64,000 nt of DNA from assembly GCF_003019035.1 (NCBI RefSeq), contig NZ_CP027447.1. One strand, given 5' to 3'. The notes beneath the pieces are model-generated. The model ran no database searches. It saw only the letters and a program-made list of their open reading frames with translations, and was not told the origin of the DNA. The position numbers were made by a program, and so were the translations under genes. Every line of letters starts with the position of its first letter. Within the stretch, counting starts at the first letter, position 1. This stretch comes from Escherichia coli (GTDB taxonomy: Bacteria; Pseudomonadota; Gammaproteobacteria; Enterobacterales; Enterobacteriaceae). Positions 1-47,676 of this stretch are shown in pieces.

Positions 1-258
1 GGCGTGAAAATGATCCCAGGCGTAAGTTACCAGAAGATCGACGATGACGGGCTGCATGTAGTGATCAACGGCGAACCGCAAATTTTGGCGGTAGATCATG
101 TGGTGATCTGCGCAGGGCAAGAGCCAAACCGCGCATTGGCGCAACCGCTGATTGATAGCGGGAAAACTGTGCATTTAATTGGCGGCTGCGATGTAGCTAT
201 GGAGCTGGACGCACGACGGGCAATTGCCCAAGGAACACGGCTGGCGCTGGAGATTTAA
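1..258 (+). CDS. fadH: 2,4-dienoyl-CoA reductase, C-terminal fragment (gene begins upstream of window)
   Basis: In-frame ORF running to TAA at 256-258; C-terminal sequence recognised as FadH; lies upstream of rlmG as in E. coli. Confidence 0.8.
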   Translation, partial: GVKMIPGVSYQKIDDDGLHVVINGEPQILAVDHVVICAGQEPNRALAQPLIDSGKTVHLIGGCDVAMELDARRAIAQGTRLALEI

Positions 259-269
259 ATTGTGCATTG

Positions 270-366
270 AAGTGCCGGATGCGACGCTTGCCGCGTCTTA
301 TCCGACCTGGGGGTAATGTGCTGAACGTATGCCAGATAAGGCGTTTACGCCTTATCTGGCAGGTAG
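270..366. repeat. REP/BIME-type palindromic repeats (two copies)
   Basis: gccggatgcgacgcttgccgcgtcttatccgacctg and gccagataaggcgtttacgccttatctggca, typical enterobacterial REP sequences in a convergent gene gap. Confidence 0.7.
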
Positions 367-375
367 CTGCCAATC

Positions 376-1512
376 TTACCGACGACGCCCCAGCTTCACT
401 GCTTTCAGCACCACAAATTTATTATTCGTGGCGATGGTGGTGCAGTTGCCGAAAATCTTCTTCAGTTTATGGAAGTAATCCAGGTGACGGTTGGCAACGA
501 TATACAGCTCGCCGTTGATTTTCAGGCAGCGGCGGGCATGGTGGAACATCTCCCAGGCGACGTTATCGGTCAGCGCATGTTGCTGATGAAACGGCGGGTT
601 GCAGAGCACAGCATTAAAGCGGAAAGGCTCCACGCCGGAGAGCGCGTTGTTGATCATAAACTCGCAGCGATCCAACGCCTCTGGCATGTTGGTTTCAACG
701 TTTAACCGGCTGGAAGCAACCGCCATCGGCGATTCATCGACAAACACCACTTTCGCCTGCGGGTTTTTATCAAGCAGCGTCAGGCCAATAACGCCATTAC
801 CGCAGCCGAGATCGACAATCTCACCCTCGAGATTCTCTGGCAGATGTTGCATAAAGAAGCGCGCGCCAATATCCAGCCCGGTGCGGGAGAAGACATTCGC
901 ATGGTTGTGGATAGTCCAGTCAGTGCCTTCCAGCTTCCAGCTAACGGTCTGCGGTGCATCAACCAGCGGCGGCTCGTTGAAAGTGCAGTTAATCAGGCGC
1001 GCTTTCTTCCATGCCAGTGTGGTGGTGGTCGGACCGAGCACTTTTTCGAACAGTTCCAGCGTGGAGGTGTGAATGTCACGGGCTTTAGCACCGGCAATAA
1101 TACGTGTATCCGGCGTGACCACTTTGCGCAGCGCACGCAGTTGTTGTTCCAGCAACGCCAGTGTTTTCGGTACTTTGATCAGTACCACGCCCGGCTGTTG
1201 CGGGTAGTCGGCGGTGCTGTCGAGAAACTTCACGCTCGATTCATCAATCCCGTTGAGGCGTAAATTCTCGCGCGTGGCCAGTTCACTGATGTATGAGTCG
1301 CCAATGCTGTACGGCTTATGTTCCGCCAGCGCACAACTTAACGCACCAAAGGCATCATTCAGGATCAACACCGGGCCGCGGATTTCTGTGTCGTCCAACT
1401 GTTGCAGCAAATATTCATCCGCCGCTTCCCACGCCTGTAGCGGGTTAACGTCATCCGTCGCCGGAAAACGTTGTAGTGTCAGTGAACGGAAACCGTTGTC
1501 TAAGTGGCTCAT
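376..1512 (-). CDS. rlmG: 23S rRNA m2G1835 methyltransferase RlmG
   Basis: 378 aa ORF; SAM-methyltransferase motifs ([16 protein letters not shown]); recognised as RlmG/YgjO. Confidence 0.88.
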
Positions 1513-1596
1513 CGGCCCTCCTGAATGATAAAATTTCGACGTTGCCCCTGAAAAGGGTGCGTGAGTATACCCTTTTTCTCTTTTTCGTGGGCGGTT

Positions 1597-2100
1597 ATGA
1601 GCAATCTTACTTATCTTCAGGGTTATCCCGAGCAGCTACTTTCCCAGGTGCGAACGCTGATTAACGAACAGCGTCTGGGCGATGTGCTGGCAAAACGCTA
1701 TCCGGGAACACACGACTACGCCACCGATAAAGCCCTCTGGCAATATACTCAGGATCTTAAAAATCAGTTTCTGCGCAATGCCCCGCCGATCAATAAAGTG
1801 ATGTATGACAACAAGATCCACGTGCTGAAAAACGCGCTCGGGTTACATACCGCTGTCTCGCGTGTGCAGGGCGGCAAGCTGAAAGCAAAAGCAGAGATCC
1901 GCGTCGCTACCGTGTTTCGCAACGCGCCGGAACCGTTTTTGCGCATGATCGTGGTGCACGAGCTGGCGCACCTGAAGGAGAAAGAGCATAACAAAGCGTT
2001 TTACCAGTTGTGCTGTCATATGGAACCGCAGTACCACCAGCTTGAGTTCGACACCCGGCTGTGGCTAACGCAGTTGTCGCTTGGGCAGGACAAAATCTGA
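1597..2100 (+). CDS. ygjP: metal-dependent hydrolase YgjP (HExxH motif)
   Basis: ORF 1561-2100 trimmed to internal Met (MSNLTYLQG..., 167 aa); [11 protein letters not shown] motif. Confidence 0.8.
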
Positions 2101-2176
2101 AAATGATGTCAGGCGTTATTTTTTCCTCCTTTAGCGCCTAAAATCGACCTCCCCCCTTTCGTTAAGGATAACGACC

Positions 2177-2869
2177 ATGCTGCGCGTATTTGCCCGCCTT
2201 CTTCTCCGTATTTGTTTTTCTCGCCGGACTCTTAAAATTGGCTGTTTATTGTTGCTTATAGCAGGAGCGACCATTTTTATTGCCGATCGCGTTATGGTCA
2301 ACGCCAGCCAACAACTGACCTGGAGCGATGTCAACGCCGTTCCGGCGCGGAACGTGGGTTTATTGCTGGGGGCGAGGCCGGGTAATCGCTACTTTACCCG
2401 ACGTATTGATAGCGCCGCAGCGTTGTACCACGCCGGAAAAGTGAAATGGCTATTGGTGAGCGGCGATAATGGACGTAAAAATTACGATGAAGCGTCAGGA
2501 ATGCAGCAAGCCTTGATCGCTAAAGGCGTACCGGCAAAAGTGATCTTCTGCGACTATGCCGGATTCTCAACGCTTGATTCGGTGGTGCGTGCCAACAAGG
2601 TGTTTAGTGAAAACCATATCACCATTATCTCGCAAGAATTTCATAACCAACGCGCCATCTGGCTGGCAAAACAGTATGGTATCGATGCTATCGGTTTTAA
2701 CGCGCCAGACCTGAATATGAAACACGGTTTATATACTCAACTGCGGGAAAAACTTGCCAGAGTCAGCGCGGTGATTGATGCGAAAATCCTCCATCGCCAG
2801 CCGAAATATCTCGGGCCGTTGGTTATGATTGGGCCGTTTAGTGAGCATGGCTGTCCGGCGAAAGAATAA
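2177..2869 (+). CDS. ygjQ: DUF218 family membrane-associated protein YgjQ
   Basis: 230 aa ORF with N-terminal hydrophobic segment; synteny. Confidence 0.8.
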
Positions 2870-2947
2870 TGCGTATCTGCGCACGTCGAAGATAAAAAAG
2901 GCGTGCTACAGTGACGAGAGAATCCCTTTATGGAGTATCCACGCGTT

Positions 2948-3934
2948 ATGATACGTTTCGCTGTGATTGGTACGAACTGGATCACTCGCCAGTTCGTCGA
3001 GGCCGCCCATGAGAGCGGTAAATACAAGTTAACTGCCGTTTATTCCCGCAGTCTTGAACAGGCCCAGCACTTCGCCAATGATTTTTCTGTCGAGCATCTG
3101 TTTACGTCGCTGGAAGCGATGGCAGAAAGCGATGCCATTGACGCGGTGTATATTGCCAGCCCGAATTCCCTGCACTTTTCCCAGACACAACTTTTCCTTA
3201 GTCACAAAATTCATGTGATTTGCGAGAAGCCACTGGCGTCGAATCTGGCGGAAGTGGATGCCGCCATTGCCTGTGCGCGGGAAAATCAGGTGGTGCTGTT
3301 TGAGGCATTTAAAACCGCCAGCCTGCCGAACTTTCATCTGTTGCGCCAGGCGCTGCCGAAAGTCGGCAAACTGCGTAAAGTCTTTTTTAACTATTGCCAG
3401 TATTCCTCGCGGTATCAACGTTACCTGGATGGTGAGAATCCCAACACCTTTAATCCGGCATTCTCTAACGGTTCAATTATGGATATCGGCTTTTACTGTC
3501 TGGCGTCAGCGGTGGCGTTATTTGGTGAGCCGAAAAGCGTGCAGGCAACCGCCAGTTTGTTGGCAAGCGGCGTAGATGCCCACGGCGTGGTGGTGATGGA
3601 TTACGGTGATTTCAGCGTTACGTTGCAGCACTCAAAAGTGAGCGATTCTGTCCTGGCAAGCGAGATTCAGGGCGAAGCGGGATCGCTGGTGATTGAAAAA
3701 CTGTCTGAATGCCAGAAAGTTTGCTTTGTTCCGCGTGGCAGCCAGATGCAGGATCTCACCCAACCGCAGCATATTAATACCATGCTCTACGAAGCAGAGC
3801 TGTTCGCTACCCTGGTGGATGAGCATCTGGTGGATCATCCAGGGCTGGCGGTCAGTCGCATCACCGCCAAACTGCTGACCGAGATCCGCCGCCAGACTAG
3901 GGTGATTTTTCCGGCAGATAGCGTAAAACTATAA
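2948..3934 (+). CDS. ygjR: Gfo/Idh/MocA-type NAD(P)-dependent oxidoreductase YgjR
   Basis: ORF 2930-3934; Rossmann N-terminus (IRFAVIGTNWI); start placed at MIRF (328 aa); start uncertain by 6 codons. Confidence 0.78.
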   Translation: MIRFAVIGTNWITRQFVEAAHESGKYKLTAVYSRSLEQAQHFANDFSVEHLFTSLEAMAESDAIDAVYIASPNSLHFSQTQLFLSHKIHVICEKPLASNLAEVDAAIACARENQVVLFEAFKTASLPNFHLLRQALPKVGKLRKVFFNYCQYSSRYQRYLDGENPNTFNPAFSNGSIMDIGFYCLASAVALFGEPKSVQATASLLASGVDAHGVVVMDYGDFSVTLQHSKVSDSVLASEIQGEAGSLVIEKLSECQKVCFVPRGSQMQDLTQPQHINTMLYEAELFATLVDEHLVDHPGLAVSRITAKLLTEIRRQTRVIFPADSVKL

Positions 3935-12159: not shown

Positions 12160-13242
12160 TCAATTGATCGTCGGCAATGACGGGGTAAAGATGACCGACA
12201 ATTTACCCATATAATATCCCGCCTGTTTTGCCGTCACGTTAAATTTGTCGACCACCAGCGTCAGCGGAGTGGGAACACACATCACAGCGTAACGGATGCC
12301 TGGAAGCACCACCGGGCGGACATGTTTAAGATTGATGTTGGTCCAGACCATGCTCTCATTGTTGCGCACATCAATTTGCCCACCTGATTCCGGGTCATAC
12401 ATTTTGACACGGTAATCAATACGCTCCCCTTCATCCGTTGAGCTCGCGCCCTGACGATAAATCGAAAACGCACCATTACTGCGTCCTGCCGCCGTTTTTC
12501 CCTCATCTTTTAGCAAAATTTCATAGCTAAGACCGTTACCGTTAAAGCCATCGTACAGGCACATATCCAACATCGTCAGATCTTGCGCGTAGTTGTTGCC
12601 GTTAACGCTGCCTGTTGGATGCAAATCCAGTTGTACGCGTGGCGTGGCGTGGGCGAACTCCGGGAAGAACACGTCGATATGGTTGGGATCGAGGGTGTTC
12701 AGGGTAATATCTGCAAAATAGTCCACTGAAGGGCTATTTGAGTGCAGCTTAACCTGCCCTTTCCAAACGCCGCCAATCGGCAACTTCTTCATTTCTGCCT
12801 GCTCAAGGTAAAGCGTAAGAAACTTCTTATCAGCATAATGTGGGGTTGAATCCCCTGATACGTAGCATTTATACCGATTTGAGTCCCTGAGATCCGTTTG
12901 TGCAACGTATCCTTCACACCCTGGAGCCCCGTCAGTGACATAAGCGTTTTTAAATCCTTTGAGCGTAATCGGCCAACGCATACCACTGCGCTGCTCCGTT
13001 AAATAAATTTGTACTGTCGAGAAATTTCCAGAGTCCGAGCAAGTTTGCTGGCTATTGGGATATGAACATTCATACCACATATACGCGTTATTTCCGGAGG
13101 ACTCTTCCTCGTTCCAGAAGTAATAATCCGCTCTGCCAGCGGCCAAATCATAAGTAATTTCAGCCGTCACATTTGGCGTAGCGTGCCCCCCCGCGACCAT
13201 GCCAAATAAGCATAAAACCATGGCAATTAATCGATTTCTCAT
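12160..13242 (-). CDS. class 5 (CS1/CFA-I-type) fimbrial minor/tip adhesin subunit (CooD/CfaE-like)
   Basis: 360 aa with signal peptide (MRNRLIAMVLCLFGMVAGGHA); last gene of a chaperone-pilin-usher-adhesin operon; size and position match CooD/CfaE. Confidence 0.65.
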   Translation of the reverse strand: MRNRLIAMVLCLFGMVAGGHATPNVTAEITYDLAAGRADYYFWNEEESSGNNAYMWYECSYPNSQQTCSDSGNFSTVQIYLTEQRSGMRWPITLKGFKNAYVTDGAPGCEGYVAQTDLRDSNRYKCYVSGDSTPHYADKKFLTLYLEQAEMKKLPIGGVWKGQVKLHSNSPSVDYFADITLNTLDPNHIDVFFPEFAHATPRVQLDLHPTGSVNGNNYAQDLTMLDMCLYDGFNGNGLSYEILLKDEGKTAAGRSNGAFSIYRQGASSTDEGERIDYRVKMYDPESGGQIDVRNNESMVWTNINLKHVRPVVLPGIRYAVMCVPTPLTLVVDKFNVTAKQAGYYMGKLSVIFTPSLPTIN

Positions 13243-15941
13243 GGTGCAACCTCCCTTTGCGCCGTCTGGACGTTTCCACGTAATTTAGGCTGTTTCAACT
13301 GTGCCTGAACCTGAATAGATTCCGGCAATTGTGAATAACTCACCACGCTACAATTCACATCCCCGCTATAGCGAATGCTGGCGCGTTTCTTCAAAACATT
13401 CAGCGGACATTTCAGGAACTGCTGCCCGGAAAGCAGATACAACTCTTTTTCACCACTGCTAATCTCAAGTGTAAATCCGCCATCTTCAGCCACCAGTAAC
13501 ATGGCGCTATTCAGACCCACCAGCGGGAACTTCTCTACCGATGCGGGTAATAACAAGCGACCAATATAGTTGTAATTAAAACTGGCAGACACTTCGCGAT
13601 AACGTAATTTGCCCGGCAACAGCATTAACTCACGATTTCCCGCACCGTTAATGATGTTGGTTGTTCCTTGCTGGTTACCCTGATTACTGTCGTTAACTTC
13701 AACAAAGCCAGACTGAAATCCAGGATAGGGGAATAACACGCTGTCGCTTTGACCAAGCTGCAATGTTCTGCTGCCAGCCACCCGCGCTTCGAGTTGCAGA
13801 CCCTGACTCTGTTCATCCTGTTCAGAGAAACCTTTCACATCCACCAACACCGCTCCCAGCAAATCATCTGAGCCGCTGGCCCCCAAATTGATGCCATAGC
13901 GACTCACCGCCAGCGTGGAGCTGTATGTCCCGGTGAAGGCCGAGAGATGATCATGGTTCTGGCGATCATAACTGTCTGAGACAGTAGCGTAGACATTTCC
14001 ATATTGGCCATCCCAACGCCCGTTAACCGCGCTGTTTATGGTATCGGTGTTCAAACCGCCGACGGTCACGCCAAGCTCTTTATGGCTGAATGAGTCGTTA
14101 TAAAAGGTATGCGATAACTGCCATGACGTTTGATCGCCATCCTGATCGCTATAACGATAATCAGTAGAAACATTGGTTGAATGGCTGTTGTTATTGCTGT
14201 CCATCGTTGGCGTATCAGATAACGAAAACGACAAGTACAAGCCGTTGTCATCGTTATCGCCACCGTTGTCGTTACGATGGAAAACCCCAAGGGAAGTACT
14301 CAAAATCCAGTCACGCATCACAAAAGCGCGAGAAGCGCTAAGTTGTACGGTCTCGGAAATGCTTTGAGCCGTAGTCTGGCGAAGATAGTTATTTTCAAAG
14401 CTCTGCTGTTTGTCCCAGCGCAAACTATCATCAGTGTTATTTTGTGTGCGGGTATAGCCCAGCATCATATTCCAGCCGACAAAATTCTGTGAAACCGTCG
14501 CGGAAATACTTTCATAACAGCTTAAGGCGTTGTAGCTCTCTCTGTTGTCGGTTGTACAAGCATCACCGTCAGAGTTGGTCCGATAAAAGCCCAACGTCGG
14601 CCATCCCGGATGACTCCAGTTGGCCTGTTGCATATCGCCTTTGCCGCCGTCATCGTTACGGAACACGCTGGCACTGATAGCCAGATTCCCCGCCCCGCCT
14701 AAATCCGCCGTCCAGTTATTACCTAACTCGAAAGCACTTACATCATCGGCATTCGCCAGCCCTGCGTAGAGCTCATATTGCGGATGTAATGGCAGACGAA
14801 CCCCTAGCTGATAAGCTGAACTTTCATCATCAGAAACCTGTGATGTGGTTTTACCTGCCTGCAAGAACCACTGGGCATTTCCGTCTGTCAGACCGCCGGT
14901 TTTGGTAAACGGTACAAGCTCGGTGCGGGTGAGTTGGTTATTTTCATAAACTTTTAACGCCACGCTGTAGCTGCCTGGCGGAAAGGAACTGGTATCAATA
15001 AATTGCGAACCACTATTGAGGTAAAACGATCCCAACAGTTGTTCATTACGATAAGCATCAACACGAGAATTGCGCGAAAGCAGGATCATTACCGGCGTAC
15101 CCTGCTGGCTTTGCGTCTGGTTTAAATAACTGAGTGTCGACCCGATACGCATTCCGTCTATTGCACCGAGTGGCAGGAAGTTAAAAGTAAAGTTTCCACC
15201 TTGCGCATTAAATAATGTGCGGTTGTCCATCCGCCCCGCCTGCACATAATAACGGCGTAAAAAATCATAGCGGTAATAGAGATCGCTGACATCGACATTG
15301 TTGTCGCTGACATCATCTGCATCATAACCGTCGAAATTCCAGTGCGCACCAATATAGCTATTTTCTGTTATTCCCAGTGCGCCATTACCCTGAATTGACA
15401 ACGATTGGTAATCATCCTGAACCAGCACATTAATATCTTGCTGATGTATAAAAGCGTTAACCGTATTTTTGTCTGGATTTAAATACAATGACTTCGAGTT
15501 AAACGCAGAACTCCATTGCGGATTAAGAAATAGCGTTGCTGAACTTTCTTCATCATTGTAGATTATTTCTACTGTCTCAGTATTAAGAAAACCGCATCCT
15601 GAATCAGTACGTACAAAACCACAAGCCAGTTCACCGTGGCGAGCTAAGGGTTGCGATAGTTTTTCTTTCACTGTATGAGCAATTTTTTGGTCGTCAGTGC
15701 TCAATTCAAGTTTGCTGTATAAACTTGATGAATCAAGAAAGGTTACGGTATCAAGATTAACCATAGCATAATATTTACCGAGACTTTTCCCTGCAAAATA
15801 AACCTCGATATACTCCTGCTGTCCCTGAGCAATAACCTCAAAACCAGCGGGAATTTTTGTTAATGTTGCCTTTGCCGGGCTGAGACTCGCCAGGATCAAA
15901 AGAGCCAGTAATTTTTTGTCCATGGCTGTCCTGTAATCCAT
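13239..15941 (-). CDS. class 5 fimbrial outer-membrane usher (CooC/CfaC-like)
   Basis: 900 aa with signal peptide; beta-rich with G/N/D/S/T-rich segments; 4 nt overlap with the downstream adhesin gene; size and operon position match alternate chaperone-usher ushers. Confidence 0.7.
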   Translation of the reverse strand: MDYRTAMDKKLLALLILASLSPAKATLTKIPAGFEVIAQGQQEYIEVYFAGKSLGKYYAMVNLDTVTFLDSSSLYSKLELSTDDQKIAHTVKEKLSQPLARHGELACGFVRTDSGCGFLNTETVEIIYNDEESSATLFLNPQWSSAFNSKSLYLNPDKNTVNAFIHQQDINVLVQDDYQSLSIQGNGALGITENSYIGAHWNFDGYDADDVSDNNVDVSDLYYRYDFLRRYYVQAGRMDNRTLFNAQGGNFTFNFLPLGAIDGMRIGSTLSYLNQTQSQQGTPVMILLSRNSRVDAYRNEQLLGSFYLNSGSQFIDTSSFPPGSYSVALKVYENNQLTRTELVPFTKTGGLTDGNAQWFLQAGKTTSQVSDDESSAYQLGVRLPLHPQYELYAGLANADDVSAFELGNNWTADLGGAGNLAISASVFRNDDGGKGDMQQANWSHPGWPTLGFYRTNSDGDACTTDNRESYNALSCYESISATVSQNFVGWNMMLGYTRTQNNTDDSLRWDKQQSFENNYLRQTTAQSISETVQLSASRAFVMRDWILSTSLGVFHRNDNGGDNDDNGLYLSFSLSDTPTMDSNNNSHSTNVSTDYRYSDQDGDQTSWQLSHTFYNDSFSHKELGVTVGGLNTDTINSAVNGRWDGQYGNVYATVSDSYDRQNHDHLSAFTGTYSSTLAVSRYGINLGASGSDDLLGAVLVDVKGFSEQDEQSQGLQLEARVAGSRTLQLGQSDSVLFPYPGFQSGFVEVNDSNQGNQQGTTNIINGAGNRELMLLPGKLRYREVSASFNYNYIGRLLLPASVEKFPLVGLNSAMLLVAEDGGFTLEISSGEKELYLLSGQQFLKCPLNVLKKRASIRYSGDVNCSVVSYSQLPESIQVQAQLKQPKLRGNVQTAQREVAP

Positions 15942-16013
15942 AATAAATACTAAAATAGTTAAAAGAAGGGAGGACTTGCCTCCCTTTATTGCATGTTAAT
16001 TCTGTTATCCAGA

Positions 16014-16514
16014 TTAGAGAGCCTGGGACAGATAAATGCTAACTACGCCACGGTAGATACCCGTTTCCAGAACACCTTTGGTAGCCTGGGAAAACATCAG
16101 TGGTTTAGCCAGCGAACCGTTAGTTAACGCATCGGAAGCAAAGATTTTCGTTGCGGTAAACGTGGTTGCCGCATCAGCTTTAATCTCTTCACCACCCCAG
16201 GTTACGGTCAGCGGAACAATTTTGCTGGCGTCCAGGCTCTGAACCAGTTGCGCAGGCGAAACTAACTGCATTTTCACGTCTTTGGTCGTGTCATTTGACC
16301 AGATTTTAGTCATTAACTGGTAAGATTGCAGACCCTGACCTGGCAGATATTGCATTTCTACTGCCTTCGGCAGTGCAGTATTATCGGTCTGCGTCATATC
16401 CAGAGCAGCATCAACGTTAGCAGTAACAGTGATATCTTTTTGTACTGCTAATGCAGAACCTGCAACGGAAAACATTGCCGCTACCAGAAGAGATTTTGCG
16501 AATACCTTTTTCAT
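16014..16514 (-). CDS. class 5 fimbrial major pilin subunit (CooA/CfaB-like)
   Basis: 166 aa; signal peptide MKKVFAKSLLVAAMFSVAGSALA; mature region resembles CS1/CFA-I major pilins (ITVTANVD..., C-terminal ...GVVSIYLSQAL). Confidence 0.72.
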   Translation of the reverse strand: MKKVFAKSLLVAAMFSVAGSALAVQKDITVTANVDAALDMTQTDNTALPKAVEMQYLPGQGLQSYQLMTKIWSNDTTKDVKMQLVSPAQLVQSLDASKIVPLTVTWGGEEIKADAATTFTATKIFASDALTNGSLAKPLMFSQATKGVLETGIYRGVVSIYLSQAL

Positions 16515-16543
16515 TACTATTCCTTGGTTTATTACAATGATAA

Positions 16544-17260
16544 TTAATGGACCGCCAGCTCAAACTCGCCATTGTCCTTGGTGATCCAGTTATTATATTT
16601 GACAACGATTTTATCGTAGCCAGATATGCTTTCTAAAACTCTTTCCTGACCAGGGAAAATGTTTTTATTTACGGTCTGTGTTCTGCACTCCGCAGAACCA
16701 CTATTTTTACAATAGGCAATGGTTAATATCTTCAGACGTTGATTGCCATTATTGATTAGCTTTTTATCGGCGTTAATATCTAACTTTGCCACAGGCTGCT
16801 GAGGTGGCACGCTGACAACAATCCCCCAAATTAAGTTAACCGTTAATTGCATGGAGAGATCTTTTTTATTATCTGTTGCATCATCAATGCTGGGTACAGC
16901 TTCAAATTTAACCCGATAGTTTTTTTCTTTTTGCTCAGGTTCCATTGCCACAAAACGCACGGTTTTGCTACTACCGCCAGGCAAAGCAAATTTGGGCGGC
17001 ATTATCACAAGTTGGTTTGCATCGCCTGAAGTTACTTCGATTTCTTTTTCTTGTGGTGTTGATGGATTATCGATACGAAATACGGTTGCCTTTATATATT
17101 GGACTTCATTCGTTTTCGATATTACACGAACACTTCCTTCTCCCTGACTGTTTATAGATACAGACATAGGATATACAGTCATATTAGATTGTGCGAAAAA
17201 TGATGTGCACAGAAGTAAGACAGGCCCGAGCCGTAATAATCGATTAATTTTCGCCACCAT
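16544..17260 (-). CDS. class 5 fimbrial periplasmic chaperone (CooB/CfaA-like)
   Basis: 238 aa with signal peptide; first gene of the operon; size and position match CooB/CfaA. Confidence 0.7.
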   Translation of the reverse strand: MVAKINRLLRLGPVLLLCTSFFAQSNMTVYPMSVSINSQGEGSVRVISKTNEVQYIKATVFRIDNPSTPQEKEIEVTSGDANQLVIMPPKFALPGGSSKTVRFVAMEPEQKEKNYRVKFEAVPSIDDATDNKKDLSMQLTVNLIWGIVVSVPPQQPVAKLDINADKKLINNGNQRLKILTIAYCKNSGSAECRTQTVNKNIFPGQERVLESISGYDKIVVKYNNWITKDNGEFELAVH

Positions 17261-18328: not shown

Positions 18329-18672
18329 AATTCCTGTCCGACAGGCGCTACAGTGCGCCTGTTTGTCTCGTCGGTAAGCGAAAAGTATAAAGTGTCAGCC
18401 TGTGTAAATCCTCTCGCCTCCCTCCCCTGCATTCAGCAAAATCAGACTCCACGGACATGTAATTTTGATAACGAACAACGTTGACCTTTGTTACAATTAG
18501 ATTCAATTTGAATTTATGCTTTTGAATGCTTTCTTATCTCACGATTTAACAGGGAATAGTTCAGGCTGTGTTGATGTATCAAACCCGCAGAACATACCAA
18601 GACAGCAATAACATTGCGGTAGTGCATCATTTAAAACCAGCGTGGCGTTAACCGATTCACCAGGAATAATGA

Positions 18673-19722: not shown

Positions 19723-19868
19723 CTTCCTGTTATCCGAAACAGATCACTCACTTTGGTGATTTCACCGTAACTGTCTATGATTAATGGGGCGGTGGTTAAC
19801 ACGACCGCTTCGTTGTCTGGACAATCGTTCCTTTGTAATAGGTCCGAATCACAATGGAAGGTTCAAGA

Positions 19869-20237
19869 ATGAAATACCGCATCGCTTTAGCTGTTTCTCT
19901 CTTTGCTCTTAGTGCCGGTAGTTATGCCACTACCCTGTGTCAGGAAAAGGAGCAAAATATCCTTAAGGAGATCAGCTATGCCGAAAAACACCAAAACCAG
20001 AATCGTATTGACGGTCTGAATAAAGCCCTGAGTGAAGTCCGGGCCAACTGTTCAGATAGCCAACTGCGTGCCGATCATCAGAAGAAAATCGCAAAGCAGA
20101 AAGATGAGGTGGCGGAACGCCAGCAAGATTTAGCCGAGGCGAAGCAAAAAGGCGATGCAGATAAGATTGCCAAACGCGAACGGAAACTGGCAGAAGCGCA
20201 GGAAGAGCTGAAAAAGCTGGAAGCGCGCGACTACTAA
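19869..20237 (+). CDS. yqjC: DUF1090 periplasmic protein YqjC
   Basis: ORF 19854-20237 trimmed to MKYRIALAVSLFALSAGSYA (signal peptide); charged coiled-coil-like remainder. Confidence 0.8.
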   Translation: MKYRIALAVSLFALSAGSYATTLCQEKEQNILKEISYAEKHQNQNRIDGLNKALSEVRANCSDSQLRADHQKKIAKQKDEVAERQQDLAEAKQKGDADKIAKRERKLAEAQEELKKLEARDY

Positions 20238-20274
20238 CTCACAATAGTCACTACTTACTCACCTGGAGAAAACT

Positions 20275-20580
20275 ATGTCGAAAGAACACACTACGGAACA
20301 TCTGCGTGCTGAGTTGAAATCCCTTTCCGATACGCTGGAAGAGGTGCTTAGCTCATCTGGCGAGAAGTCGAAAGAAGAGTTGAGTAAGATTCGTAGCAAA
20401 GCGGAGCAGGCACTGAAACAGAGCCGTTATCGCCTGGGTGAAACCGGTGATGCCATCGCCAAACAAACCCGTGTCGCGGCGGCGCGTGCCGATGAGTATG
20501 TGCGTGAAAATCCGTGGACCGGCGTGGGCATTGGCGCTGCAATCGGTGTAGTGCTCGGCGTTCTGCTGTCGCGTCGTTAA
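20275..20580 (+). CDS. yqjD: ribosome-associated membrane-anchored protein YqjD (ElaB/YgaM family)
   Basis: 101 aa with C-terminal transmembrane segment (GVGIGAAIGVVLGVLLSRR). Confidence 0.82.
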   Translation: MSKEHTTEHLRAELKSLSDTLEEVLSSSGEKSKEELSKIRSKAEQALKQSRYRLGETGDAIAKQTRVAAARADEYVRENPWTGVGIGAAIGVVLGVLLSRR

Positions 20581-20582
20581 TT

Positions 20583-20987
20583 ATGGCGGACACTCATCAC
20601 GCGCAAGGGCCCGGTAAAAGCGTTCTGGGCATCGGGCAGCGAATTGTTTCCATCATGGTTGAAATGGTGGAAACACGTCTGCGGCTGGCGGTGGTGGAGC
20701 TGGAAGAGGAAAAAGCGAATCTCTTTCAACTTTTACTGATGCTGGGCCTGACGATGCTTTTCGCTGCATTTGGTCTTATGAGCCTGATGGTGCTAATTAT
20801 TTGGGCGGTTGATCCGCAATATCGCCTGAATGCGATGATTGCCACCACCGTGGTGTTGCTGCTACTGGCACTGATTGGCGGTATCTGGACGTTACGTAAA
20901 TCGCGTAAATCCACCTTGCTGCGCCATACACGCCATGAGCTGGCAAACGATCGGCAGCTGCTCGAGGAGGAGTCCCGTGAGCAGTAA
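20583..20987 (+). CDS. yqjE: inner membrane protein YqjE
   Basis: ORF 20514-20987 trimmed to MADTHHAQGPG... (134 aa); two hydrophobic segments. Confidence 0.75.
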   Translation: MADTHHAQGPGKSVLGIGQRIVSIMVEMVETRLRLAVVELEEEKANLFQLLLMLGLTMLFAAFGLMSLMVLIIWAVDPQYRLNAMIATTVVLLLLALIGGIWTLRKSRKSTLLRHTRHELANDRQLLEEESREQ

Positions 20988-21276
20988 AGTCGAACGTGAA
21001 CGACGTAAGGCGCAACTGCTTAGCCAGATCCAGCAACAACGGCTGGATCTTTCCGCCACTCGTCGTGAATGGCTGGAGGCAACAGGCGCTTACGATCGTC
21101 GCTGGAATATGCTGTTGAGTCTGCGCTCCTGGGCGCTGGTTGGCAGTAGCGTGATGGCTATCTGGACGATTCGCCATCCTAATATGCTGGTCCGCTGGGC
21201 CAGACGCGGTTTTGGTGTATGGAGCGCCTGGCGTCTGGTGAAAACAACCCTCAAGCAACAACAGCTTCGCGGTTAA
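20977..21276 (+). CDS. yqjK: small protein YqjK (GTG start, overlaps yqjE 3' end)
   Basis: In-frame GTG at 20977 giving VSSKVERERRKAQLL... (99 aa); the ATG-initiated ORF 20875-21276 would overlap yqjE extensively. Confidence 0.6.
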   Translation: MSSKVERERRKAQLLSQIQQQRLDLSATRREWLEATGAYDRRWNMLLSLRSWALVGSSVMAIWTIRHPNMLVRWARRGFGVWSAWRLVKTTLKQQQLRG

Positions 21277-21462
21277 CTTCCTCTCTGGCCGGAGAAATTC
21301 CGGCCTTATCCCTCAAATTTTTTGAAAATATTTGACAGTTTTCCTTGCTAACAATCACGCTTCGCCACGTTTATGATTCTCTCCATCGACAGCAACGACG
21401 CTAATAGCGCGCCCTTGCACAAAAAAACAATCAGCAGCCTGAGCGGCGCAGTGGAGAGTATG

Positions 21463-21894: not shown

Positions 21895-22060
21895 CTCCTC
21901 GTTTCAGATTGTTGACAAAGTGCGCGTTGTTCATGCCGGATGCGGCGTGAACGCCTTATCCGGCCTACAAAAACATGCAAATTCAATACATTGCAGAAAC
22001 CTCGTAGGCCTGATAAGCATAGCGCATCAGGCAGTTTTGCGTTTGCCATCAGTCTCAAAC
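21895..22060. repeat. REP/BIME module flanked by short hairpins
   Basis: gccggatgcggcgtgaacgccttatccggcctac ... gtaggcctgataagcatagcgcatcaggca; flanking hairpins cgaggaggaacactcctcg and cgaggagaaacgctcctcg. Confidence 0.7.
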
Positions 22061-40090: not shown

Positions 40091-40467
<377 letters not shown>

Positions 40468-46876: not shown

Positions 46877-47212
46877 ATGCCCGCTAATGCTCGCTCTCAC
46901 GCTGTACTGACCACTGAATCAAAGGTCACGATACGCGGACAAACAACTATCCCCGCGCCAGTGCGTGAGGCCTTAAAACTGAAGCCAGGCCTGGACAGCA
47001 TTCATTACGAAATTCTGCCTGGTGGGCAAGTATTTATGTGCCGACTGGGAGATGAACAGGAGGATCATACTATGAATGCATTTTTGCGTTTTCTGGATGC
47101 AGATATCCAGAACAACCCGCAAAAAACTCGTCCATTCAACATTCAACAAGGAAAGAAACTTGTCGCTGGCATGGACGTCAACATTGATGATGAGATTGGC
47201 GACGACGAATAA
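46877..47212 (+). CDS. prlF: antitoxin PrlF (SohA), AbrB/SpoVT-type
   Basis: 111 aa; acidic C-terminal tail (DDEIGDDE); stop overlaps the yhaV start. Confidence 0.88.
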   Translation: MPANARSHAVLTTESKVTIRGQTTIPAPVREALKLKPGLDSIHYEILPGGQVFMCRLGDEQEDHTMNAFLRFLDADIQNNPQKTRPFNIQQGKKLVAGMDVNIDDEIGDDE

Positions 47213-47676
47213 TGGATTTTCCACAAAGGGTTAATGGTTGGGCGCTATATGCTCATCCCTGTTTCCAGGAAACCTACGACGCTTTAGTTGCCGAAGTCGA
47301 GACATTAAAGGGAAAAGATCCTGAAAATTATCAGAGAAAAGCCGCCACAAAGTTATTGGCGGTAGTCCATAAAGTGATTGAGGAGCATATCACGGTCAAT
47401 CCATCATCACCGGCATTCCGTCATGGCAAGTCGTTAGGCTCTGGGAAAAATAAAGACTGGTCACGGGTAAAATTTGGTGCTGGTCGTTATCGTCTCTTCT
47501 TTCGTTATAGTGAAAAAGAGAAAGTCATCATTCTGGGATGGATGAACGATGAAAACACTCTGCGCACCTACGGTAAAAAAACAGATGCCTATACCGTATT
47601 CAGCAAAATGTTAAAAAGAGGACATCCTCCTGCCGACTGGGAAACCCTCACCCGAGAGACAGAAGAAACCCATTGA
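47212..47676 (+). CDS. yhaV: ribonuclease toxin YhaV (RelE/ParE superfamily)
   Basis: 154 aa; ATG overlaps the prlF stop (ATGA-type overlap at 47212). Confidence 0.88.
   Translation: MDFPQRVNGWALYAHPCFQETYDALVAEVETLKGKDPENYQRKAATKLLAVVHKVIEEHITVNPSSPAFRHGKSLGSGKNKDWSRVKFGAGRYRLFFRYSEKEKVIILGWMNDENTLRTYGKKTDAYTVFSKMLKRGHPPADWETLTRETEETH

What the first reader, a model, noticed from the sequence alone, without database searches (positions are those of the whole stretch)
19869..21276. yqjC-yqjD-yqjE-yqjK: compact cluster of small envelope proteins with an overlapping GTG-initiated last gene
Four small genes are tightly spaced: a signal-peptide protein, an ElaB-family membrane-anchored ribosome-associated protein, a two-transmembrane protein, and a 99 aa protein that appears to start at a GTG overlapping the yqjE stop by 11 nt. 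The ATG-initiated frame of the last gene would overlap yqjE by over 100 nt. The cluster is functionally under-characterised.
Basis: partly seen in the sequence, partly recalled or inferred. Interest (0 to 1): 0.2.

Follow-up and report, generated by a model that had tools for sequence, protein, structure and literature searches.

The report
Known E. coli yqjCDEK stress operon
This is the already-annotated E. coli yqjC-yqjD-yqjE-yqjK operon, and comparison with about 90 related genomes shows that the last gene does start at the GTG that overlaps the end of yqjE, so the finding is correct but ordinary.

Summary
The window is E. coli chromosome.

yqjK starts at GTG 20977 and overlaps yqjE by 11 nt.
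- A strong Shine-Dalgarno (GAGGAGGAG, -11.8 kcal/mol) precedes the GTG. The upstream ATG and TTG have none.
- In 80 other Enterobacteriaceae species the homologous codon is always a start codon: GTG 51, ATG 27, TTG 3 of 81 loci counting the window.
- In 65 of 81 loci an in-frame stop lies within 41 nt upstream.
- Substitution patterns switch from the yqjE frame to the yqjK frame at the GTG.

One detail was wrong. The upstream ATG (20935) would overlap yqjE by 53 nt, not over 100. The 113-nt figure belongs to a TTG at 20875.

The 11-nt overlap is an Escherichia/Citrobacter variant of a conserved stop-start overlap, most often 4-nt GTGA/ATGA. Distant homologues keep a tight DUF883-YqjE-YqjK triad without yqjC. 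This fits translational coupling of membrane partners of the ribosome-hibernation factor YqjD.

The sigma-S promoters, the CsrA sites and the synteny are already published. Fused AlphaFold2 models gave no support for a complex.

Verdict: already known, low interest.

The parts
19774..19787 (+). Sigma-S-type extended -10 element (TCTATGATTAA, 19774-19784) and the yqjC / yqjCDEK transcription start at 19787
   Evidence: PMC10746276 maps the TSS to an A at -82 from the yqjC ATG. 19869-82 = 19787. Alignment to K-12 shows K-12 has A there and this strain has G. The assignment of the -10 element is my reading of the sequence.
19854..19858 (+). CsrA binding site BS1 (AUGGA), overlapping the yqjC Shine-Dalgarno. 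The non-functional GGA1 lies at 19819-19821.
   Evidence: PMC10746276 describes an A(-15)G change, AUGGA to GUGGA, and places GGA1 34 nt upstream of GGA2. Both map exactly onto the window sequence.
19869..20237 (+). yqjC, 122 aa, DUF1090, with a signal-peptide-like N-terminus (MKYRIALAVSLFALSAGSYA)
   Evidence: (PF06476, E 1.5e-34). Present in 81/81 enterobacterial loci but in none of 8 distant loci.
20170..20174 (+). Internal sigma-S-dependent transcription start for yqjDEK (CCAAA), inside the yqjC coding sequence
   Evidence: PMC10746276 places the TSS between -105 and -101 of the yqjD ATG, at 'CCA' followed by 'AA'. This maps to 20170-20174 in the sequence.
20201..20267 (+). CsrA sites BS2 (GGA 20201-20203), BS3 (GGA 20219-20221) and BS4 (GGA 20265-20267, overlapping the yqjD Shine-Dalgarno)
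   Evidence: PMC10746276 puts BS2/BS3 between -50 and -80, lying 61 and 43 nt from BS4. The window spacings are exactly 61 and 43 nt.
20275..20580 (+). yqjD, 101 aa, DUF883 N-terminal domain plus a C-terminal glycine-zipper membrane anchor (residues 80-100)
   Evidence: 92.5 bits to the ElaB equivalog, below its 139-bit cut-off, so a paralogue. The N-terminus MSKEHTTEHLR was seen by N-terminomics with Ribo-RET/INRI support (PMC13245402 supplement).
20583..20987 (+). yqjE, 134 aa, with two hydrophobic helices (about 45-78 and 80-105). It starts 2 nt after the yqjD stop.
   Evidence: PF07332, 75.8 bits; AF2 TM hairpin pLDDT 81-90. The N-terminus MADTHHAQGPGK... was seen by N-terminomics. The D-E gap is 1-2 nt in 81/81 loci.
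20964..20972 (+). Shine-Dalgarno of yqjK (GAGGAGGAG), encoded by the Glu codons of the YqjE C-terminal tail
   Evidence: anti-SD duplex -11.8 kcal/mol, against +1.9 for ATG 20935 and -1.5 for TTG 20875. A GGAGG-like motif is kept in most of the 81 loci.
20977..21276 (+). yqjK, 99 aa, GTG start, Pfam YqjK. It is very basic (19 K+R against 6 D+E) and is predicted as two long helices.
   Evidence: (PF13997, 87.5 bits).
20977..20987 (+). 11-nt yqjE/yqjK overlap (GTGAGCAGTAA), running from the yqjK start codon to the yqjE stop codon
   Evidence: This overlap length occurs in 11 of 81 loci. Elsewhere the junction is 4 nt (49 loci), 1 nt (13), 8 nt (4) or a 2-nt gap (4).
21287..21310 (+). GC-rich hairpin (GGCCGGA-GAAAT-TCCGGCC, 21287-21305) and the operon's RNA 3' end at about 21310
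   Evidence: 7-bp stem. Term-seq places a 3' end at K-12 3250409, 33 nt after the yqjK stop, classed as the primary 3' end of yqjK, with Rho score 2.10 ('Yes') and intrinsic-terminator score 2.13, below 3 (PMC7815308 supplement 3). The consensus scan called no intrinsic terminator here.

Best explanation
The region is the known E. coli yqjCDEK operon. It is transcribed from a sigma-S promoter upstream of yqjC and from a second sigma-S promoter inside yqjC. CsrA represses it at the yqjC and yqjD leaders, and transcripts end at a hairpin about 30 nt after yqjK. yqjK is a real 99-codon gene that initiates at GTG 20977. Its Shine-Dalgarno (GAGGAGGAG) is written into the acidic C-terminal codons of yqjE, and its start codon lies 8 nt before the yqjE stop. 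Ribosomes finishing yqjE are therefore released on top of the yqjK initiation site. Likewise, ribosomes finishing yqjD stop 2 nt before the yqjE ATG. The most likely mechanism is translational coupling, which ties YqjD, YqjE and YqjK synthesis together. The conserved unit is the DUF883-YqjE-YqjK triad. yqjC is an Enterobacteriaceae-specific addition. YqjD tethers and blocks ribosomes at the inner membrane in stationary phase. I infer that YqjE and YqjK are its membrane partners or modulators.

What is shown: gene identities, the start codon, the conservation of the overlaps, and the synteny. What comes from the literature: the promoters, the CsrA sites and YqjD function. What is inferred: coupling (about 0.7) and a physical or functional D-E-K partnership (about 0.35-0.4).
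For: - Identity: 100% match to an E. coli chromosome, with PGAP and K-12 coordinates identical to the finding.
- Ribosome-binding site: SD duplex -11.8 kcal/mol at the GTG, against +1.9 and -1.5 at the upstream ATG and TTG.
- Start codon: in 81 loci the homologous codon is GTG 51, ATG 27, TTG 3. An in-frame stop lies within 41 nt upstream in 65/81 and within 12 nt in 56/81. The -42 ATG exists in only 9 loci.
- Close relatives: Escherichia sp. MOD1-EC7003 has a TAG at -36, Escherichia sp. E1V33 has ACG at -42, and E. albertii has ATG at the start position.
- Substitution pattern: upstream of the GTG, variable sites fall 14/7/31 on yqjE codon positions 1/2/3. Downstream they fall 8/6/27 on yqjK positions 1/2/3.
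- Protein family: 51 YqjK homologues down to 24% identity have collinear N-termini.
- Junction conservation: the E-K junction is an overlap of 1-11 nt or a 2-nt gap in 81/81 enterobacterial loci, and the D-E gap is 1-2 nt in 81/81.
- Distant loci: 8 loci keep D-E-K with overlaps of 8, 4 or 1 nt or a 2-nt gap, and none has yqjC.
- Published regulatory features map base-for-base onto the window. The Term-seq 3' end falls after the hairpin.
- The synteny of yqjE/yqjK with DUF883 and the function of YqjD are published.
Against: - No direct experimental mapping of the yqjK start could be retrieved. N-terminomics lists YqjD and YqjE but not YqjK in the part of the supplement that is held. My inference is that the tryptic N-terminal peptide MSSK is too short to detect.
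- Coupling is inferred from geometry only. The strong SD could support independent initiation, and PMC10746276 mentions predicted TSSs upstream of yqjE and yqjK.
- A hairpin that buries the GTG exists in E. coli but is not conserved across 78 junction sequences. Mean z is -0.26, and the start codon is unpaired with probability 0.50 against 0.49 in shuffles.
- Fused AlphaFold2 models gave no confident complex: pTM 0.31 for E-K and 0.24 for D(TM)-E-K.
- The only published statement of E-K interaction rests on a TM-dimer prediction server (reference 68 of PMC10746276).
Confidence: 0.9

Rival explanations
1. yqjK starts at the upstream in-frame ATG (20935) and gives a 113-aa protein that overlaps yqjE by 53 nt.
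For: ATG is the commonest start codon. A minority of database entries are called this way: P0002 (113 aa, 8 member sequences) and P0014 from E. fergusonii.
Against: There is no SD (+1.9 kcal/mol). The ATG is present in only 9 of 81 loci, and 65 of 81 loci have an in-frame stop between that position and the real start. Close Escherichia relatives carry a TAG at -36 or an ACG at -42. Variable sites upstream of the GTG concentrate on yqjK-frame position 2, which is yqjE position 3 (31 of 52). Family N-termini are collinear with the 99-aa form. The 99-aa clusters hold hundreds of member sequences (P0003 866, P0005 308).
Confidence: 0.02
2. yqjK uses the longest ORF and starts at TTG 20875, giving 133 aa and a 113-nt overlap. 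This is the 'over 100 nt' alternative that the first reader had in mind.
For: It is the first start codon after the in-frame TGA at 20872.
Against: The SD is very weak (-1.5 kcal/mol) and TTG is a rare start. The frame is closed by stops in most species. The translated extension is not conserved even within the Escherichia/Citrobacter clade.
Confidence: 0.005
3. The GTG start is right, but yqjK is translated independently. Ribosomes would load de novo on its strong SD, possibly on shorter transcripts from internal promoters, and the overlap would be only a by-product of genome compaction.
For: The SD is strong and well spaced. PMC10746276 cites global TSS mapping that predicts starts upstream of yqjE and yqjK. 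No conserved RBS-masking structure was found. The overlap length varies from a 2-nt gap to 11 nt.
Against: The stop and start lie within a few nucleotides of each other in all 81 enterobacterial and 8 distant loci, despite 25-45% protein identity in the distant ones. yqjE itself has almost no SD and sits 1-2 nt after the yqjD stop in 81/81 loci. That is hard to explain without reinitiation.
Confidence: 0.25
4. yqjE is a phage-type holin, as its RefSeq product name says, and the cluster is a cryptic lysis or toxin module.
For: The Pfam PF07332 'Phage_holin_3_6' match scores 75.8 bits against a 28.4-bit cut-off. YqjE overproduction arrests growth and raises persistence (PMC4738310).
Against: YqjD, YqjE and YqjK match none of 38,880 PHROG phage families. 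A tblastn search of 50,697 phage records finds only a 1.9-kb unannotated fragment and a mis-filed Salmonella contig. No endolysin or phage gene is adjacent in any of about 90 loci. The gene is core to E. coli (5422/5426 genomes) and always sits between a DUF883 gene and yqjK.
Confidence: 0.03

Closest known systems
E. coli K-12 MG1655 yqjC-yqjD-yqjE-yqjK (b3097-b3100)
   Same: Same genes, order, lengths, GTG start and 11-nt overlap. The same sigma-S promoters and CsrA sites map base-for-base.
   Different: Only strain-level SNPs. The yqjC TSS base is G here and A in K-12. The terminator hairpin loop is GAAAT here, where K-12 reads GCCAT in the Term-seq flank.
Pseudomonas aeruginosa PA3040-PA3042 operon (PMC11302039)
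   Same: A DUF883/YqjD-like gene, a YqjE-like gene and a small third gene lie less than 15 bp apart. Expression is high in stationary phase and responds to envelope stress.
   Different: It has no yqjC. The paper finds 'no recognized domains' in PA3042, and I could not test whether it is a YqjK homologue (the listing did not reach Pseudomonas). Overexpression of PA3040 or PA3041 is not growth-inhibitory, unlike E. coli YqjD and YqjE.
ElaB and YgaM, the E. coli paralogues of YqjD (DUF883 C-tail-anchored ribosome-hibernation factors)
   Same: The same two-domain architecture, DUF883 plus a glycine-zipper anchor. YqjD scores 92.5 bits on the ElaB model.
   Different: The score is below the ElaB equivalog cut-off of 139 bits, so YqjD is a paralogue. 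According to bioRxiv 10.1101/2024.08.16.608256, YqjD is the archetype that keeps the yqjE/yqjK neighbours, and ElaB/YgaM arose by later duplications. I did not examine the elaB and ygaM loci here.
Translationally coupled overlapping cistrons of the ATGA / TAATG type, such as trpE-trpD and trpB-trpA (textbook knowledge)
   Same: A same-strand stop-start overlap of a few nucleotides, with the downstream gene's SD inside the upstream coding sequence. The commonest form in the yqjE-yqjK family is exactly GTGA/ATGA (49/81 loci).
   Different: In E. coli the overlap is 11 nt and the start is GTG. Whether YqjK synthesis depends on yqjE translation has not been tested.

Membership tests
E. coli yqjCDEK operon (b3097-b3100) | Same gene order, coordinates and products as the curated K-12 and RefSeq annotation | tested here: met
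   The match to an E. coli chromosome is 100% identical, and the annotated CDS boundaries equal the finding's coordinates.
E. coli yqjCDEK operon (b3097-b3100) | Published regulatory elements present: sigma-S TSSs at -82 of yqjC and -101 to -105 of yqjD, and CsrA sites BS1-BS4 | tested here: met
   The sequence motifs and their spacings (34, 43 and 61 nt) map exactly. Their activity in this strain was not tested.
DUF883 / YqjD-ElaB-YgaM C-tail-anchored ribosome-hibernation factors (for yqjD) | N-terminal DUF883 domain (PF05957) | tested here: met
   49.5 bits against a 25.4-bit cut-off.
DUF883 / YqjD-ElaB-YgaM C-tail-anchored ribosome-hibernation factors (for yqjD) | C-terminal glycine-zipper transmembrane anchor (PF19029) at the extreme C-terminus | tested here: met
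   57 bits against a 27-bit cut-off; a hydrophobic segment at residues 80-100 of 101.
DUF883 / YqjD-ElaB-YgaM C-tail-anchored ribosome-hibernation factors (for yqjD) | Binds ribosomes and inhibits translation | not testable with these tools
   Reported for the K-12 protein in bioRxiv 10.1101/2024.08.16.608256.
Pfam YqjK (PF13997) (for yqjK) | Profile match above the gathering score over the whole domain | tested here: met
   87.5 bits against 28.1, covering profile positions 1-73 of 73.
Pfam YqjK (PF13997) (for yqjK) | Encoded immediately downstream of a Phage_holin_3_6 (YqjE-like) gene and a DUF883 gene | tested here: met
   81/81 enterobacterial loci and 8/8 distant loci where the upstream sequence is available.
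Phage holins (holin superfamily III, Pfam PF07332 'Holin-X') (for yqjE) | Profile match to PF07332 | tested here: met
   75.8 bits against 28.4.
Phage holins (holin superfamily III, Pfam PF07332 'Holin-X') (for yqjE) | Occurs in phage or prophage genomes, in a lysis cassette next to an endolysin | tested here: not met
   No PHROG match. No genuine phage record among 50,697. The neighbours are always DUF883 and yqjK.
Phage holins (holin superfamily III, Pfam PF07332 'Holin-X') (for yqjE) | Forms membrane lesions that release endolysin | not testable with these tools
   Only growth arrest on overproduction is reported (PMC4738310).
Translationally coupled overlapping gene pair (yqjE-yqjK) | Same-strand stop-start overlap or near-abutment, conserved among orthologues | tested here: met
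   all 89 loci have an overlap of 1-11 nt or a 2-nt gap.
Translationally coupled overlapping gene pair (yqjE-yqjK) | Downstream translation depends on translation of the upstream cistron | not testable with these tools
   This needs nonsense-polarity or reporter experiments. An RBS-masking hairpin exists in E. coli but is not conserved.
DUF1090 periplasmic proteins (for yqjC) | PF06476 match plus an N-terminal Sec-type signal peptide | tested here: met
   118.8 bits against 24.4. The n-h-c pattern MKYR / IALAVSLFALSAG / SYA was read from the sequence. No dedicated signal-peptide predictor was available.

The most novel reading that the evidence does not exclude
YqjD, YqjE and YqjK form an ancient three-gene membrane module. 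The 2-TM protein YqjE and the very basic helical-hairpin protein YqjK would be obligate partners that insert, oligomerise or gate the tail-anchored ribosome-hibernation factor YqjD. The conserved stop-start overlaps would exist to fix their stoichiometry. My evidence does not exclude this: the synteny and junction geometry are conserved down to about 25% identity. It does not support it either, because the fused AlphaFold2 models were non-committal.
Probability: 0.35. Interest if true: 0.45.

Novelty: already known. Interest (0 to 1): 0.1.

Why it matters
It matters little beyond annotation hygiene. The analysis gives a firm comparative basis for the curated GTG start of yqjK. It shows that the 113-aa and longer gene calls scattered through the databases are over-extensions. 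It also shows that 'phage holin family protein' is a misleading name for YqjE. The conserved DUF883-YqjE-YqjK coupling points to YqjE and YqjK as the obvious next targets for understanding how the YqjD hibernation factor is controlled, but that lead is already in the literature.

Tried and rejected
1. A conserved RBS-masking hairpin as the coupling mechanism. E. coli folds GCUGCUCG/UGAGCAGU around the GTG (z -2.1, and -3.5 on a 65-nt window). Across 78 distinct junctions, however, mean z is -0.26 and start-codon accessibility equals that of shuffles. I rejected it as a family feature.

2. AlphaFold2 on linker-fused, genome-paired alignments. YqjE-GS25-YqjK gave pLDDT 66.6 and pTM 0.31. YqjD(C-terminal 42 aa)-YqjE-YqjK gave pLDDT 59.4 and pTM 0.24. 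Neither shows a confident assembly. The test is inconclusive because the MSA is shallow, this is a monomer model used as a workaround, and no PAE is returned.

3. Linking PA3042 to YqjK. The profile search with a 51-sequence alignment listed only enterobacterial hits in its top 120. This remains untested.

4. Experimental start-site data. yqjK is absent from the held supplements of PMC13245402 and PMC9825163. No supplements are held for the Ribo-RET preprint or for PMC7043885. PMC4006352 is not held.

5. A frameshift-generated YqjE-YqjK fusion through the 105-nt open yqjK frame. I rejected this because in most species the frame is closed 3-9 nt upstream of the start.

6. The first alignment was too diverse for the genome scan (error). 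A narrower one was used instead.

7. The holin reading was rejected.
Full report
**What is there.** The window is E. coli chromosome. A 2-kb query around the finding is 100% identical to strain SCU-301 and is present in 5422 of 5426 complete E. coli genomes. PGAP annotation of that record, shifted into window coordinates, gives:
- yqjC 19869-20237
- yqjD 20275-20580
- yqjE 20583-20987
- yqjK 20977-21276

The curated K-12 MG1655 record has the same four genes, b3097-b3100. Its yqjK is at 3250077-3250376 and overlaps yqjE (3249683-3250087) by 11 nt. The ORF list and the raw sequence agree. The yqjK start is a GTG at 20977 and the yqjE stop is a TAA at 20985-20987. The intergenic distances are 37 nt (C-D) and 2 nt (D-E).

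All four products match Pfam families far above the gathering scores: DUF1090, DUF883 plus DUF883_C, Phage_holin_3_6 and YqjK. Hydropathy shows one C-terminal anchor in YqjD and two strongly hydrophobic segments in YqjE. YqjK has only a weakly hydrophobic centre and is very basic, with 19 K+R against 6 D+E.

**The one error in the observation.** The nearest upstream in-frame ATG is at 20935 and would overlap yqjE by 53 nt. The 'over 100 nt' alternative is the TTG at 20875 (113-nt overlap), which follows an in-frame TGA at 20872.

**Which start does yqjK use?** Five independent lines agree on GTG 20977.

1. Ribosome-binding site. GAGGAGGAG at 20964-20972 pairs with the 16S 3' end at -11.8 kcal/mol, and its AGGAGG core sits about 6 nt from the GTG. 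The ATG and TTG alternatives score +1.9 and -1.5.

2. Orthologues. One genome per species was scanned and 80 Enterobacteriaceae loci of 68-95% protein identity were fetched. Counting the window, the codon homologous to the GTG is GTG in 51 loci, ATG in 27 and TTG in 3. An in-frame stop lies within 41 nt upstream in 65 of 81 loci and within 12 nt in 56. The -42 ATG exists in only 9 loci.

3. Close relatives. Within the clade that shares the 11-nt overlap, Escherichia sp. MOD1-EC7003 has a TAG at -36. Escherichia sp. E1V33 has ACG instead of the -42 ATG. E. albertii has an ATG at the start position itself.

4. Substitution pattern in that clade. In the 105 nt upstream of the GTG, variable sites fall 14/7/31 on yqjE codon positions 1/2/3, so 31 of 52 land on yqjK-frame position 2. 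From +12 to +120 they fall 8/6/27 on yqjK positions 1/2/3. Purifying selection in the yqjK frame therefore begins at the GTG.

5. Family-wide comparison. A full scan of 1.84 billion representatives found 132 relatives. In an alignment of 51 of them, down to 24% identity, the N-termini are collinear within a few residues.

Database gene calls of 113 aa or more are a small minority next to the 99-aa clusters. P0002 holds 8 member sequences, against 866 and 308 for P0003 and P0005. Some long calls are stop-codon read-through artefacts such as P0001.

I found no direct experimental mapping. An N-terminomics supplement confirms the annotated N-termini of YqjD and YqjE but does not list YqjK in the part that is held. 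My inference is that the tryptic N-terminal peptide MSSK is too short to be seen.

**The overlap in context.** The 11-nt overlap is a lineage variant. It occurs in 11 of 81 loci, in Escherichia, the Citrobacter amalonaticus/sedlakii group and Intestinirhabdus. The commonest junction is the 4-nt GTGA/ATGA overlap (49 loci), followed by the 1-nt TAATG form (13), an 8-nt overlap (4) and a 2-nt gap (4).

The two classes put yqjE in different frames relative to yqjK. The 11- and 8-nt overlaps have one frame offset, and the 4- and 1-nt overlaps have the other (my arithmetic). The YqjE C-terminus also differs, for example ...LEEESREQ against ...LEDDQS. This points to a small frame-changing indel at the 3' end of yqjE (my inference). 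It also explains why an open upstream yqjK frame exists mainly in the 11- and 8-nt-overlap loci.

yqjE always starts with ATG, 1-2 nt after the yqjD stop, in 81 of 81 loci.

Eight distant loci with YqjK at about 25-45% identity keep the same three genes. The upstream gene has the YqjD hallmark C-terminus...YVRENPW..GIGAA.G..LG.LL.RR. Their E-K junctions are 8, 4 or 1 nt of overlap or a 2-nt gap, their D-E distances run from -1 to 9 nt, and none has yqjC.

One of these loci (L087) reads DedA - DUF883 - YqjE - YqjK - DoxX - LysR - pirin. This is the E. coli order without mzrA and yqjC. The conserved unit is therefore D-E-K, and yqjC is an enterobacterial addition. This synteny has already been reported (bioRxiv 10.1101/2024.08.16.608256).

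**Mechanism.** The best-supported reading is translational coupling. Each downstream start lies within a few nucleotides of the upstream stop across large evolutionary distances. The yqjK Shine-Dalgarno is built from the acidic C-terminal codons of yqjE.

I tested whether coupling works through a conserved hairpin that masks the start. E. coli does fold such a hairpin (z -2.1). Across 78 distinct junction sequences, however, there is no excess structure (mean z -0.26) and the start codon is no less accessible than in shuffles. The hairpin is therefore not a family feature. Termination-reinitiation at the overlap is the more general candidate. Independent initiation on the strong SD remains a live rival at about 0.25.

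**Function.** Everything specific here comes from the literature.
- The operon has sigma-S promoters at -82 of yqjC and at -101 to -105 of yqjD.
- CsrA binds BS1-BS4 (PMC10746276). I mapped these sites to window 19787, 20170-20174, 19854-19858, 20201-20203, 20219-20221 and 20265-20267, with spacings that match the paper exactly.
- YqjD tethers the 50S subunit to the membrane and blocks the exit tunnel.
- YqjE overproduction arrests growth (PMC4738310).
- A Term-seq 3' end lies 33 nt after the yqjK stop, just past a 7-bp GC hairpin. It has a significant Rho score and a sub-threshold intrinsic-terminator score.

YqjC, YqjE and YqjK have no known function. The only published claim that YqjE and YqjK interact cites a TM-dimer prediction server. 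My two AlphaFold2 attempts on linker-fused, genome-paired alignments gave pTM 0.31 and 0.24, which is no support either way. In those models YqjE has a confident TM hairpin, and YqjK forms two long helices that break at the conserved R-x-P.

**The 'phage holin' name for YqjE.** The Pfam match is real. But YqjD, YqjE and YqjK hit no PHROG family. Among 50,697 phage records, only a 1.9-kb unannotated fragment and a mis-filed Salmonella contig match YqjE. The genomic context is never a lysis cassette. YqjE is therefore a member of the Pfam family but fails the context feature of functional holins.

**Verdict.** Everything of substance is already annotated or published, so the finding is already known and of low interest. 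The residual open question is what YqjE and YqjK do for YqjD. It is real, but this finding does not open it.

Noticed in passing
window 12160-17260 (- strand): A four-gene CS1-type chaperone-usher fimbrial operon sits between exuT and exuR in this strain. Its genes encode a periplasmic chaperone, a CS1-type major subunit, a TcfC-like usher and a CfaE/CblD tip adhesin. From memory, K-12 has exuT and exuR adjacent, so this looks like a strain-variable island.
   Followed up: no
window 18568-18651 (+ strand): PGAP annotates an 84-nt (27-aa) 'hypothetical protein' CDS just upstream of yqjA (WP_212734101.1). It may be a small protein or a leader peptide.
   Followed up: no
window 21971-22011 (+ strand): An Rfam match to ES036 (CssrF) sRNA lies in the yqjF-yqjG intergenic region. 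It scores barely above the gathering score (38.4 against 37.6 bits). It could be a repeat-element look-alike.
   Followed up: no
window 19787: The base that corresponds to the mapped yqjC transcription start is G in this strain, where K-12 has the published A. A second leader SNP lies at 19803, G here and T in K-12.
   Followed up: partly
window 20957-20985: An E. coli-specific hairpin (GCUGCUCG / UGAGCAGU) buries the yqjK GTG and leaves part of the SD in the loop. It is significant against shuffles in E. coli but not conserved across Enterobacteriaceae.
   Followed up: yes
yqjE 3' end, window about 20960-20987, compared with loci L006-L081: yqjE sits in a different frame relative to yqjK in different lineages. 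The 11- and 8-nt overlaps have one offset and the 4- and 1-nt overlaps have the other. The YqjE C-termini also differ (...LEEESREQ against ...LEDDQS/...LEDDKP). This implies a small frame-changing indel at the gene junction.
   Followed up: partly
proteins P0004, P0023, P0056, P0067, P0282 (database homologues of YqjK): Some Shigella and Salmonella YqjK entries carry a 10-11-aa tandem duplication, such as LDLSASRREW repeated twice. Several UniRef entries name YqjK homologues 'Cell division protein FtsH', which looks like a propagated misannotation.
   Followed up: no
locus L087 (NCBI GCA_037996785.1), 250-3894: A distant relative has the order DedA(VTT) - DUF883 - YqjE - YqjK - DoxX - LysR - pirin. 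This mirrors E. coli yqjA ... yqjDEK - yqjF ... yhaJ - yhaK but lacks mzrA and yqjC, which suggests that those two genes were inserted in Enterobacteriaceae.
   Followed up: partly
window 21287-21305: The stem of the operon's terminator hairpin is identical to K-12, but the loop differs: GAAAT here and GCCAT in the K-12 Term-seq flank.
   Followed up: no
window 40091-40467 (- strand) and 46877-47676: rnpB (RNase P RNA, Rfam 318.6 bits) and the prlF-yhaV toxin-antitoxin pair are present as expected for this chromosomal region.
   Followed up: no
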